64,000 nt of DNA from a virus. The notes beneath the pieces were generated by a model, which was not told the DNA's origin, searched no databases, and saw nothing but the letters and a program-made list of their open reading frames with translations. Within the stretch, counting starts at the first letter, position 1, and each line of letters opens with the position of its first letter. Location of the stretch: IMG/VR virus record IMGVR_UViG_3300050821_010655, positions 12,697-76,696 of that record; one strand, given 5' to 3'. The position numbers and the translations under genes are program-made. Of this stretch, positions 7,993-9,910 are shown one piece after another.

Positions 7993-8784
7993 CTATCTTT
8001 TGGATCGACCTTGTTTCTCGGGTTCCGGTTCTTCCTCGATGGGATCACACGGCAGATCGTCGGCGTAGCTGTGAGTGTCGGCATAAGGCTGGGCGTTCAT
8101 CGCAATAAACAACGTGCTGACCAACGCCTGAAACCATTCCGGCCCGATAGAGATGTCTTTCAAGTCCGGGTTTTCGTCCATGCACCGCTGGCCAATACTC
8201 GCCGCCGTCTTGAAGCACATGCAATAGAGGTTTTCCAACTGTCCAAGCCGATCTAGTGCGTCGTCTACGCCATTATCGCTCTCTTGCTTATGGCTTCTGG
8301 ATTCTTCACGTTCACTGCGGTCATCCTCACGTTCTCGACGGCGTGGGCGTTCTTCGGGTTCATCTGCTTCTGGCTCGTCCTCGCGTTGTCGGCGTCTAGG
8401 CTTTTCGTCCTCATCTTCATCGGTTGTGGCCGCGCCATTCACCACCTCAGCACTCTTGCTCACCTCCAGAATGCGCGTCACCTTGTCCTTGTATTCGTCG
8501 TCGCGGGCGAGCAAGCCATCGAGTTTGTTTCTCTTGTCTCGCGTGGCGACAAAATTGAATTCCTTGCCTTTGTCCTTGTCGGAGATGCGATCATGATCCC
8601 AGATCTTCACCTTTATCTCGTTGCCAGCGCGATCCTTCATCATTAGAATCTGAATCGACCCGTCGCTATTCTTGCCCACGCCGTCTTTCCAAGTGAAGAA
8701 TTGGGTGACCTTCCCGCGAAACGCCTTTACGATGTCACCGTCCTCTAAATCTTTTATGTCTTGAACTGTGAATACCTGCGGCAT
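7993..8784 (-). CDS. OB-fold (RPA-like) ssDNA-binding protein with acidic linker
   Basis: IKDLEDG..V..FRGKV...G.I..L.MKD.AGNEIKVKIWD resembles RPA-type OB folds; RBS GAAAGGA. Confidence 0.55.
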   Translation of the reverse strand: MPQVFTVQDIKDLEDGDIVKAFRGKVTQFFTWKDGVGKNSDGSIQILMMKDRAGNEIKVKIWDHDRISDKDKGKEFNFVATRDKRNKLDGLLARDDEYKDKVTRILEVSKSAEVVNGAATTDEDEDEKPRRRQREDEPEADEPEERPRRREREDDRSEREESRSHKQESDNGVDDALDRLGQLENLYCMCFKTAASIGQRCMDENPDLKDISIGPEWFQALVSTLFIAMNAQPYADTHSYADDLPCDPIEEEPEPEKQGRSKR

Positions 8785-8825
8785 TTGATTTCCTTTCGTT
8801 CTGTGGTTTGTGAATTTTTTCTAAA

Positions 8826-8867
8826 AGTTAAAGAGGGGGCGGTTGCTTATCACGCAAGCCCGCCCCC
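8826..8867 (-). terminator. GC hairpin followed by a U-rich tail; probable 3' end of the ncRNA
   Basis: GGGGGCGG...CCGCCCCC followed by TCTTTAACT on the minus strand. Confidence 0.65.
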
Positions 8868-9142
8868 AAGGTTAAAACGACGCCTTTTAGCTGTGTTCCA
8901 CAGATCGCCTGACACATCTTGAACCTAATCACAACGCCTTACCCCTAGACCACCCCGCCACATGGAGGCGGGGACGGGAATTGAACCCGCGTCTTTGCTT
9001 TGGGTTGTACCATCGATCCGTTTCACTTGTCGTTTCGTTTCTAAGCCTTCGGGTGAAAACTTAAGCCTTTATCCAGTGATCTTAAGTCTGACCTTGAGCC
9101 TTGGATGGGCTTTTCGCCAAAGCTACTAAGCCCCACCCGAAA
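8830..9142 (-). ncRNA. structured ncRNA with a permuted tRNA-like domain (Y-RNA/YrlA-like topology)
   Basis: T arm GCGGG-TTCAATT-CCCGT (8990-8974), acceptor CCCCGCC-TCCATGT-GGCGGGG (8973-8953), D arm GTCT-AGGGGTA-AGGC (8950-8936); enclosing helices CGGATCG/CGATCTG and AAACGAC/GTCGTTT; 5' domain closed by TTCGGGTG/CACCCGAA. Confidence 0.75.
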
Positions 9143-9910
9143 TTATGGTTTCTTGCCGTCAAAAACAAACCCAAGCAGGGCTTTGCCCATTTTTAGATTT
9201 GTCTCAACCTCCTGATCATTCGCCCGCGAACGCGCCTTGCGTACCGCCCGAATCGTCTGTTCCGCCCGATCAAGAATCTCCGATTTTTCAGCCGGGGTGA
9301 TCAACCCGGACCACTCTTGCTCCGAGATAGTGCCAACCACCAAGTCAACAGGCACGAGTTGCGTCTGCGCCGGGTGCTCTTTGGTTGGCTCGTGCAACAC
9401 CACCACCCGCACGTCTTTCTTGGTCCGTGCTTTGTTTACTTCGCGAGCCTTATAAATTCCACCGCCGCGTTGGGGGTCGTCCTGAAATCCCTTGGCGGGA
9501 TCGAGCGTCGGAATCGCCTTGGACAAATGAAGCACCCAATCGGTCAGCCGCTTTTCCAATTCCAAAAGGGCGGTGGCGGGAATGTCTTTGAGCAAGACCG
9601 TTCCGGCGTCATCGTCCAGAACCACATCGGCTCGTGCCTTGGTGTTGGCGTCCGCCACCTGCAACCCGGCATCCATTGCCTTTGCCAAATGTGGAACAAT
9701 CCATGCCAGTTCTCTACGCACCGTGCTTTGAATATCCGACTGCGCTTCGGTGGTGGCGGGTTTGCCCTCTTCGTTGGATTGGAAAGTGGTTCGCTTTTCC
9801 TCAAACAGATGGCGTTTCTTTTCAAAGGTGTTCGCCAAATCGGTTCGGGTTTGAATGGCTTGGGTTTCCAGATTTCCTTCGGCAGCTAACAGTTCGTGTA
9901 GTTTCGTCAT
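9143..9910 (-). CDS. conserved helical protein of unknown function, adjacent to the ncRNA
   Basis: KLHELLA, LLELEKRL, IPTLDP, RTKK, HPAQ, WSG, AVRKARSRAN motifs recall an uncharacterised family seen in actinomycetes and phages; has its own promoter. Confidence 0.8.
   Translation of the reverse strand: MTKLHELLAAEGNLETQAIQTRTDLANTFEKKRHLFEEKRTTFQSNEEGKPATTEAQSDIQSTVRRELAWIVPHLAKAMDAGLQVADANTKARADVVLDDDAGTVLLKDIPATALLELEKRLTDWVLHLSKAIPTLDPAKGFQDDPQRGGGIYKAREVNKARTKKDVRVVVLHEPTKEHPAQTQLVPVDLVVGTISEQEWSGLITPAEKSEILDRAEQTIRAVRKARSRANDQEVETNLKMGKALLGFVFDGKKP

What the first reader, a model, noticed from the sequence alone, without database searches (positions are those of the whole stretch)
9040..9142. 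Hexamer-periodic repeats displayed in a loop of the ncRNA 5' domain
Seen: a long helix (TTCGGGTGGGGCTTAG / TTAAGTTTTCACCCGAA) and an inner ATCCA/TGGAT stem enclose AGGCTCAAGGTCAGACTTAAGATCA, a run of A-R-R-Y-T-Y hexamers (AGGCTC AAGGTC AGACTT AAGATC). Further AGGCTTA copies follow nearby. Inference: regularly spaced single-stranded sites for an oligomer (ring or filament) of the upstream protein, or a template/guide-like segment.
Basis: partly seen in the sequence, partly recalled or inferred. Interest (0 to 1): 0.7.

Follow-up and report, generated by a model that had tools for sequence, protein, structure and literature searches.

The report
Six-base repeat array in phage RNA
The flagged stretch is the conserved front domain of a phage non-coding RNA: a stem enclosing phased six-base repeats, joined to a back-to-front tRNA look-alike and always encoded with one protein of unknown function (DUF7873), so it probably marks an undescribed RNA-protein particle.

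Summary
On the minus strand, right after the stop codon of a DUF7873 gene, an 8-bp helix (9141-9134 with 9055-9048) encloses a hairpin and phased six-base units. There are four units at 9101-9078, two at 9068-9057 and one just after the helix at 9048-9043.

The same domain follows DUF7873 in 37 related loci, and the helix covaries. In 22 sequences not used to build the model, unit positions 1 (A) and 5 (U) are 20-22 of 22.

Across 51 more distant loci, AGNNT units lie exactly 6 nt apart 60 times, against 3.7 expected. The array sits 5' of a circularly permuted, anticodon-less tRNA-like module.

The units are not a reading frame, have no conserved pairing partner and are absent from the gene's leader.

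My best reading is a phased binding platform for an oligomer of DUF7873, the only conserved neighbour. Binding is inferred, not shown.

The nearest known systems are YrlA Y RNAs with Ro60, but the defining features tested are not met.

This scan has noted the same module in at least 36 other genomes. I found no description in Rfam or in the papers searched.

The parts
9143..9910 (-). DUF7873 gene (255 aa). Its stop codon TAA (9145-9143) lies 1 nt before the RNA's closing helix.
   Evidence: Pfam PF25283, E 9e-62. AF2 model has pLDDT 92.5. The family has 2,233 clusters at E<=1e-10.
9134..9141 (-). P1, 5' strand of the closing helix (TTCGGGTG)
   Evidence: Pairs with 9048-9055. In 35 distinct homologues 91.7% of cells are paired, and 7 of 8 pairs show changes on both sides.
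9107..9133 (-). P2 hairpin (GGGC...GCCC). It is longer here than in most relatives, which carry GNRA-type loops.
   Evidence: Helix 2: 80-86% paired, all 4 pairs with double changes. Sequences printed.
9102..9106 (-). ATCCA, a conserved junction after P2. In this window it can pair with TGGAT at 9071-9075.
   Evidence: ATCC is conserved in the alignment. The TGGAT partner is present only in the window and L012.
9078..9101 (-). Run A: four phased six-base units, AGGCTC AAGGTC AGACTT AAGATC
   Evidence: The first three units fall on alignment columns 83-100. There A1 is 97-100%, U5 is 86-100% and G3 is 63-91%.
9057..9068 (-). Run B: two units (AGGCTT AAGTTT) ending directly at the P1 3' strand
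   Evidence: Columns 152-160 of A8: A 100%, U 100%, G 83%. The same layout appears.
9048..9055 (-). P1, 3' strand (CACCCGAA)
9043..9048 (-). Run C: one unit (AGGCTT) directly after P1, sharing its first A with the helix
   Evidence: Partly conserved directly after P1 in the A8 alignment (columns 170-173: G 84%, G 63%, C 49%, U 60%); an AGGCT-like unit is visible there in most printed homologues.
8995..9042 (-). Linker. Its 3' end forms a 4-bp helix, equivalent to an anticodon stem, with the bases just after the D arm.
   Evidence: RNAalifold columns 213-216 with 300-303; all four pairs show covariation.
8928..8994 (-). Circularly permuted tRNA-like module. In order: T arm 8990-8974, acceptor 3' strand 8973-8967, U-CCA 8966-8963, 3-nt loop, acceptor 5' strand 8959-8953, D arm 8950-8936.
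   Evidence: Model R2 scores 69.2 bits. Pairing is 97.6% with covariation 0.87 against 0.23. Rfam YrlA scores 23.2 bits, below its threshold.
8915..8929 (-). Further unit-like sequence (ATT AGGTTC AAGATG) at the place where an anticodon loop would open
   Evidence: GAUUAGRCU is conserved after the D arm in close homologues.
8821..8867 (-). GC-rich terminator-like hairpin (GGGGGCGG with CCGCCCCC) followed by a T-rich tail; probable 3' end of the RNA
   Evidence: Sequence. An equivalent hairpin is present in homologues. The simple terminator scan did not call it.

Best explanation
The stretch is the 5' domain of a phage non-coding RNA of about 320 nt, encoded directly behind a DUF7873 gene.

The domain has a covarying closing helix (P1) and a small hairpin (P2). 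It carries three runs of six-base units in a fixed layout: about four units after P2, two just before the P1 3' strand, and one just after P1. In this clade the unit is A-R-G-N-U-N; across the wider family it is U-Y-A-G-N-N.

I read the array as a multivalent, phased binding platform that takes one protein subunit per unit. The most likely partner is an oligomer of the co-encoded DUF7873.

The array is joined to a permuted, anticodon-less tRNA-like module. That module has a 7-bp acceptor stem, an encoded N-CCA, and a loop ending in UAU in many relatives (UGU here). These features make it a probable RNase P substrate, as was shown for M. smegmatis YrlA.

Shown: the conservation, phasing and layout of the units; the helix covariation; the linkage to DUF7873; and the tRNA-like fold.

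Inferred: protein binding, the identity and stoichiometry of the partner, RNA processing, and the biological role.
For: The domain was recovered by covariance model in 37 loci downstream of DUF7873. P1 is 91.7% paired, against 29-56% when the partner is slid, and 7 of 8 pairs change on both sides.

In 22 non-seed sequences A1 is 22/22 in four units, U5 is 20-22/22 and G3 is 17-21/22. Positions 4 and 6 vary.

In 51 wider loci AGNNT occurs 287 times against 168+-11 in shuffles. Successive units lie exactly 6 nt apart 60 times against 3.7+-1.9. Autocorrelation at lag 6 has z = 9.8.

There is no conserved pairing inside P1. No protein neighbour other than DUF7873 is conserved in 93 loci.

The tRNA-like module lies downstream on the same strand in 63 of the 93 homologous loci, as it does in the window. 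It is also present in five cultured phages.

In Bernardetia sp. OM2101 the DUF7873 gene lacks an adjacent RNA. Three tandem copies of array plus tRNA-like RNA lie about 135 kb away in the same chromosome.

The unit sequence differs between lineages: AGGCUY, AGCNUY, AAACUN, UAGCGU. This fits a co-evolving partner better than a universal host factor.
Against: No binding data exist, and no RNA-seq run held this sequence.

DUF7873 is not basic (pI 6.3). It has no detectable relative among solved RNA-binding or ring-forming proteins.

Thermodynamic folding pairs the units about as often as the rest of the domain.

About a third of DUF7873 loci, mostly Cytophagales chromosomes, have no RNA within 2.5 kb.

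Adjacency alone cannot tell a protein partner from simple co-expression.
Confidence: 0.5

Rival explanations
1. The array binds a host factor rather than DUF7873, for example an RNA chaperone, a ribonuclease such as PNPase, or an anticodon-directed nuclease. It would act as a sponge, decoy or tether, as Y RNAs tether Ro60 to PNPase and CsrB sponges CsrA.
For: The multivalent short motifs resemble known sponge RNAs. The family-wide core U-Y-A-G preceded by C/U resembles a U33 plus NAG anticodon-loop segment. One unit sits exactly where the anticodon loop would open. In cultured phages the module sits among tRNA genes.
Against: The unit sequence changes between phage lineages infecting different phyla. 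The one constant companion is DUF7873. The position after AG shows no purine preference family-wide, which weakens the anticodon-loop mimicry idea.
Confidence: 0.2
2. The units are an RNA-only architectural element. They would form tertiary contacts or imperfect pairing between run A and run B, or with the tRNA-like part, without serving as protein sites.
For: AGGCUU can pair with itself through G-U wobbles. Minimum-energy folds often pair run A with run B. The AUCC after P2 is complementary to the GGAU after the D arm in 5 of 12 close homologues, with one covarying position.
Against: AGACUY, AGCGUC and AAACUN units cannot self-pair. RNAalifold finds no conserved pairing inside P1. Direct repeats with fixed A1 and U5 are not what helices conserve.
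Confidence: 0.15
3. The array is a guide or a template. It would either pair with periodic targets or be copied by a polymerase.
Against: No reverse transcriptase, nuclease or polymerase is conserved nearby. Guides vary freely, whereas here a motif is fixed. The array occurs only once in the phage record.
Confidence: 0.05
4. The array is a short reading frame, either a tmRNA-like tag or a read-through extension of DUF7873. AGN-YUN would encode Ser/Arg-Leu/Phe/Val repeats.
For: Unit positions 3 and 6 are the most variable, like codon third positions. The frame after the DUF7873 stop stays open for 32 codons in the window. Rfam gave a faint permuted-tmRNA hit of 14.5 bits.
Against: Runs interrupted by insertions keep a multiple of 3 in only 25 of 75 cases, which is the chance rate. 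The AGR-CUY frame has no start codon in the window. ARAGORN finds no tmRNA. The acceptor stem has C3-G70, not the G3-U70 alanine identity pair. Acceptor sequences vary freely.
Confidence: 0.03

Closest known systems
YrlA-class bacterial and phage Y RNAs with Ro60/Rsr (Rfam RF02553; Chen et al. 2014, PMC4201824)
   Same: Both are modular non-coding RNAs with a circularly permuted tRNA-like module (T arm, closed acceptor stem, D arm) joined to a separate protein-binding part. Both are encoded next to their protein and occur in phages. M. smegmatis YrlA has a 7-bp acceptor stem, is cut by RNase P and receives CCA. Here the 7-bp stem, the encoded NCCA and a pyrimidine at -1 predict the same processing.
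   Different: The partner gene is DUF7873, not a TROVE/Ro60 protein; none is present in the record. The Ro-binding motif GNCGAAN0-1G is absent. The Rfam score is 23.2 bits against a threshold of 69. YrlA has no six-base repeat domain.
Multivalent protein-binding RNAs: the trp leader with the TRAP 11-mer, hut mRNA with the HutP hexamer, CsrB/RsmZ with CsrA (from my own knowledge)
   Same: All carry several copies of a 3-4 nt core at regular short spacing, in segments without a conserved pairing partner. Each core is read by one subunit of an oligomer.
   Different: The period here is 6 nt, against 5 for TRAP and 7 for HutP. The core is U-Y-A-G or A-R-G-N-U. The units are split into three runs around a helix. 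The RNA is a stand-alone molecule with a tRNA-like head. No partner has been demonstrated.
Cas7 backbone proteins on crRNA (Cascade, Csm, Cmr), which bind with a 6-nt period (from my own knowledge)
   Same: Both have a six-nucleotide period. The DUF7873 model has a long beta-hairpin with a conserved tip (HPAQ) that could play the role of a thumb. Weak Foldseek rows included several Cas7 chains.
   Different: VIA-align did not reproduce the Cas7 matches. crRNA spacers carry no sequence motif. No other CRISPR component is present.
Two-piece (permuted) tmRNA (Rfam RF04321)
   Same: Both have the permuted gene order: T arm, acceptor 3' strand with CCA, a removable loop, then the acceptor 5' strand.
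   Different: It scores 14.5 bits against a threshold of 47, and ARAGORN is negative. There is no G3-U70 pair, no consistent tag frame, no pseudoknots and no SmpB link.

Membership tests
YrlA Y RNA (RF02553) | Score at or above Rfam's gathering threshold (69 bits) | tested here: not met
   23.2 bits, E 0.015, at 8906-9013 (-). No hit at gathering level.
YrlA Y RNA (RF02553) | tRNA-like module with T arm, closed acceptor-like stem and D arm in permuted order | tested here: met
   97.6% of cells paired. The D stem, which my detector did not select for, is 91% paired with covariation.
YrlA Y RNA (RF02553) | Ro60/Rsr (TROVE) gene in the same locus or genome | tested here: not met
   PF05731 found 0 matches in the 76.7-kb virus record; positive controls rang. 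The record is about 64% complete, and the host was not searched.
YrlA Y RNA (RF02553) | Conserved GNCGAAN0-1G motif in the Ro-binding stem (PMC4201824) | tested here: not met
   Regex search: absent from the window RNA, and at no consistent place in 13 homologues.
Permuted tmRNA (RF04321) | Family score, ARAGORN call, G3-U70 alanine identity pair, and a tag reading frame | tested here: not met
   14.5 bits against 47. ARAGORN found 0 genes. The acceptor stem GGCGGGG/CCCCGCC has C3-G70. Frame is not kept across interrupted runs.
Phased multivalent protein-binding RNA (TRAP, HutP or CsrB type) | Several copies of a short core at regular spacing, conserved as a pattern across relatives | tested here: met
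Phased multivalent protein-binding RNA (TRAP, HutP or CsrB type) | Demonstrated binding of an oligomeric protein, one subunit per core | not testable with these tools
   No binding, stoichiometry or complex prediction could be run.
Cas7 (RAMP) backbone on RNA | RRM/RAMP fold of the protein partner | tested here: inconclusive
   Foldseek rows for Cas7 chains had E 0.017-0.09 and TM about 0.15. They were not reproduced by VIA-align: best Z 8.0 and 5.2, on helical proteins only.

The most novel reading that the evidence does not exclude
DUF7873 and this RNA form a previously unknown, widespread ribonucleoprotein particle of phages and bacteria. Copies of a protein with a new fold would assemble one per six-base unit around the P1 helix (about 7 units per RNA). 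A processed, two-piece tRNA-like head with a free CCA end would plug the particle into tRNA-handling machinery: RNase P, the CCA-adding enzyme, and possibly tRNA-targeting defence or repair systems.
Probability: 0.35. Interest if true: 0.85.

Novelty: new variant of a known kind. Interest (0 to 1): 0.72.

Why it matters
DUF7873 is a large family with no assigned function: 2,233 clusters at 50% identity. It occurs in phages of Proteobacteria, Actinobacteria, Cyanobacteria, Bacteroidota and the Planctomycetota-Verrucomicrobiota group.

Its only constant companion is this RNA. The six-base array is the part of the RNA with no counterpart in any described Y RNA, tmRNA or tRNA mimic. It gives a concrete handle that can be mutated to ask what the protein does.

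The module is present in cultured phages: Ralstonia phiRSL1, Klebsiella FBKp24, Rhizobium RHph_TM21B, Vibrio D505 and Gordonia Ronaldo. Binding, stoichiometry, processing and phenotype are therefore directly testable.

If the array proves to be a phased assembly track, it would add a new type of sequence-specific periodic protein-RNA assembly. It would also add a second, Ro60-independent lineage of tRNA-mimic particles.

Tried and rejected
- Rfam at gathering level over the whole window: nothing. At permissive level, only sub-threshold YrlA, tmRNA and chance hits.
- ARAGORN: no tRNA or tmRNA in the window.
- Cas7/RAMP likeness of DUF7873: suggested by weak Foldseek rows, not reproduced by VIA-align wide or by re-ranking. 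BFVD gave nothing significant. PDB sequence search gave nothing. The ESM Atlas returned only DUF7873 clusters. PHROGs and NCBIfam had no hit.
- Reading-frame idea: rejected on frame statistics and the lack of a start codon.
Density is 0.014 per nt against 0.037 in the RNA, with one pair at 6-nt spacing.
- The ATCCA/TGGAT inner stem as a family feature: not conserved.
- Thermodynamic evidence that the units are unpaired: none.
- Conserved protein neighbours other than DUF7873: none.
- The simple promoter scan found none; the terminator scan did not call the GC hairpin at 8835-8867.
The closest relatives (75-84% identical proteins) could therefore not be fetched; I used metagenome loci at 54-66% identity instead.
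- Papers: no hit for DUF7873. Nothing relevant came from four further searches.

Full report
**Context.** The window is part of a 76.7-kb IMG/VR virus record. Genes around the finding run on the minus strand.

The finding (9040-9142) lies in a 358-nt gap. The gap separates a 255-aa gene (9143-9910) from a 263-aa ORF (7993-8784). The 255-aa gene matches Pfam DUF7873 at E 9e-62. The 263-aa ORF has no family match.

**Observation.** Read on the minus strand, TTCGGGTG (9141-9134) pairs with CACCCGAA (9055-9048). ATCCA (9106-9102) can pair with TGGAT (9075-9071).

Between those two stems lie AGGCTC AAGGTC AGACTT AAGATC (9101-9078). Two more units (AGGCTT AAGTTT, 9068-9057) abut the 3' strand of the long helix. 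One further unit (AGGCTT, 9048-9043) follows it.

ARRNTY repeated four times occurs once in the window, against none in 100 shuffles.

**The rest of the RNA.** Downstream on the same strand lies a circularly permuted tRNA-like module, in this order:
- T arm, 8990-8974
- acceptor 3' strand, 8973-8967
- U-CCA, 8966-8963
- a 3-nt loop
- acceptor 5' strand, 8959-8953
- D arm, 8950-8936

A GC-rich hairpin with a T-rich tail follows at 8867-8821.

Rfam gives only a sub-threshold YrlA match: 23.2 bits against a threshold of 69. ARAGORN finds nothing.

**Conservation of the 5' domain.** DUF7873 homologues were fetched from viral contigs, genomes and metagenomes.

In all close relatives the gene is followed by the same domain: P1, a small hairpin that often carries a GNRA loop, and runs of six-base units.

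A covariance model built from 14 sequences recovers the domain in 37 loci, always downstream on the gene's strand.
- P1 is 91.7% paired, against 29-56% when the partner is slid. Seven of its 8 pairs change on both sides.
- In 22 distinct sequences that were not model seeds, unit position 1 is A in 22/22 for three successive units and for the last unit before P1.
- Position 5 is U in 20-22/22, position 3 is G in 17-21/22, and position 2 is a purine in 15-22/22.
- Positions 4 and 6 vary.

That alignment is fitted to the model, which favours the pattern somewhat.

The layout recurs: about four units after P2, then a variable insert or hairpin, then two units ending at the P1 3' strand, then one unit after P1.

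**Wider family.** I took 51 loci with 30-65% protein identity, and in each the segment of up to 170 nt upstream of the T arm.
- AGNNT occurs 287 times, against 168+-11 in dinucleotide shuffles.
- Successive occurrences are exactly 6 nt apart 60 times, against 3.7+-1.9 (maximum 10 of 300 shuffles).
- They are 12 nt apart 17 times, against 3.2.
- Autocorrelation peaks at lag 6 (z = 9.8) and lag 12 (z = 4.5).

The family-wide unit is U(78%)-Y(78%)-A-G-N-N. Its flavour differs by lineage:
- AGGCUY or AGACUY in this clade
- AGCNUY in Bacteroidota-associated loci
- AAACUN in Vibrio and Rhizobium phages
- UAGCGU in Ralstonia phage phiRSL1

**What the units are not.**
- Not a reading frame. Runs separated by insertions keep a multiple of three in 25 of 75 cases, which is chance. 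The AGR-CUY frame has no start codon in the window.
- Not a helix with a conserved partner. RNAalifold predicts only P1. Single-sequence folds do pair the units about as often as other bases.
- Not present in the gene's leader.
- Not repeated elsewhere in the phage record.

**The tRNA-like module and linkage to DUF7873.**
- T, acceptor and D stems are 97.6% paired, with covariation 0.87 against 0.23 in shuffles. Acceptor pairing was a selection criterion; D-stem pairing was not.
- N-CCA, an A-rich loop and UAU before the 5' acceptor strand are common.
- A 4-bp helix equivalent to the anticodon stem closes the junction and covaries.
- The module lies downstream of DUF7873 on the same strand in 63 of the 93 homologous loci, as it does in the window.
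- It is also present in five cultured phages: Rhizobium RHph_TM21B, Ralstonia phiRSL1, Klebsiella FBKp24, Vibrio D505 and Gordonia Ronaldo.
- No other protein neighbour is conserved.
- In the complete Bernardetia sp. OM2101 chromosome the DUF7873 gene has no adjacent RNA. Three tandem copies of array plus tRNA-like RNA lie about 135 kb away. The RNA can therefore be a separate gene, and the array and the head form one unit.

**The protein.** The AF2 model is confident (pLDDT 92.5). It shows a four-helix bundle, small sheets and a long beta-hairpin (residues 158-201). The hairpin tip motif HPAQ is nearly invariant.

No solved or viral structure matches convincingly. Weak Cas7 rows in Foldseek were not reproduced by VIA-align. 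The pI is 6.3. The family has 2,233 clusters at E<=1e-10, all about 245-275 aa.

**Interpretation.** The fixed positions within a drifting unit, the strict local 6-nt phase and the lack of a pairing partner all point one way. So do the fixed layout around P1 and the exclusive linkage to one protein family. Together they best fit a phased, multivalent protein-binding platform, with a DUF7873 oligomer as the likeliest partner.

This is inference; no binding evidence exists.

The tRNA-like head resembles YrlA. M. smegmatis YrlA, with a 7-bp acceptor stem, is cut by RNase P and gains CCA (PMC4201824). The same processing is predicted here.

The defining YrlA features tested are not met: the Rfam threshold, a Ro60 partner and the GNCGAAN0-1G motif. 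I therefore do not file it as a YrlA member.

**Prior notes and literature.** This scan has already noted the same DUF7873 plus hexamer plus permuted-tRNA module in at least 36 other genomes. Two notes on this genome agree with my reading.

I found no description in Rfam or in the papers searched.

Noticed in passing
L007, L008, L011, L017 (about 165 nt after the tRNA-like module): A canonical tRNA gene directly follows the RNA. By eye the anticodons are TCT, TGT and CAT in three of them. Its 5' end would set the RNA's 3' end by RNase P cleavage. In cultured phages the module also sits among tRNA genes.
   Followed up: partly
window 9102-9106 versus 8925-8934; A7 columns 45-53 versus 300-307: The conserved (G/A)AUCC after P2 is complementary to the GGAU(C/U) after the D arm in 5 of 12 close homologues, with one covarying position (GAUCC/GGAUC against AAUCC/GGAUU). 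This may be a long-range contact. In the window the local TGGAT replaces it.
   Followed up: partly
G001:C1:2738601-2739737 (-), Bernardetia sp. OM2101: Three tandem copies, about 520 nt apart, of the complete RNA (six-base array plus tRNA-like head). They lie about 135 kb from an RNA-less DUF7873 gene.
   Followed up: partly
L104 (Klebsiella phage FBKp24) and L105 (Ralstonia phage phiRSL1): A second tRNA-like module is inserted inside the repeat domain, giving a two-headed form. In FBKp24 an annotated 'tRNA-Sup-TTA' (locus 2518-2597) overlaps the module hit at 2566-2656 and may be a misannotation.
   Followed up: partly
L077 (just after the DUF7873 stop) and L094 (about 130-260 nt after it): Two Bacteroidota loci without the usual RNA carry tandem 7-nt repeats instead: ACGAGTT repeated about five times, and GGTAACT/GATTACT repeated about 18 times.
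   Followed up: no
window 8835-8867 (-) and homologous hairpins: The terminator-like hairpin keeps a similar loop sequence (CGTGATA or CGTGCTA) in the window, L009 and L010. That is unusual for a plain terminator.
   Followed up: no
window 9041-9142 (-): The DUF7873 reading frame stays open for 32 codons past its TAA stop, up to the TAG at 9043-9041. The chance of this is about 21%, and I take it as coincidence.
   Followed up: partly
window 9167-9183 (-): A terminator-like hairpin with a T-run lies inside the last 40 nt of the DUF7873 coding sequence. It is within the number of hits expected by chance.
   Followed up: no
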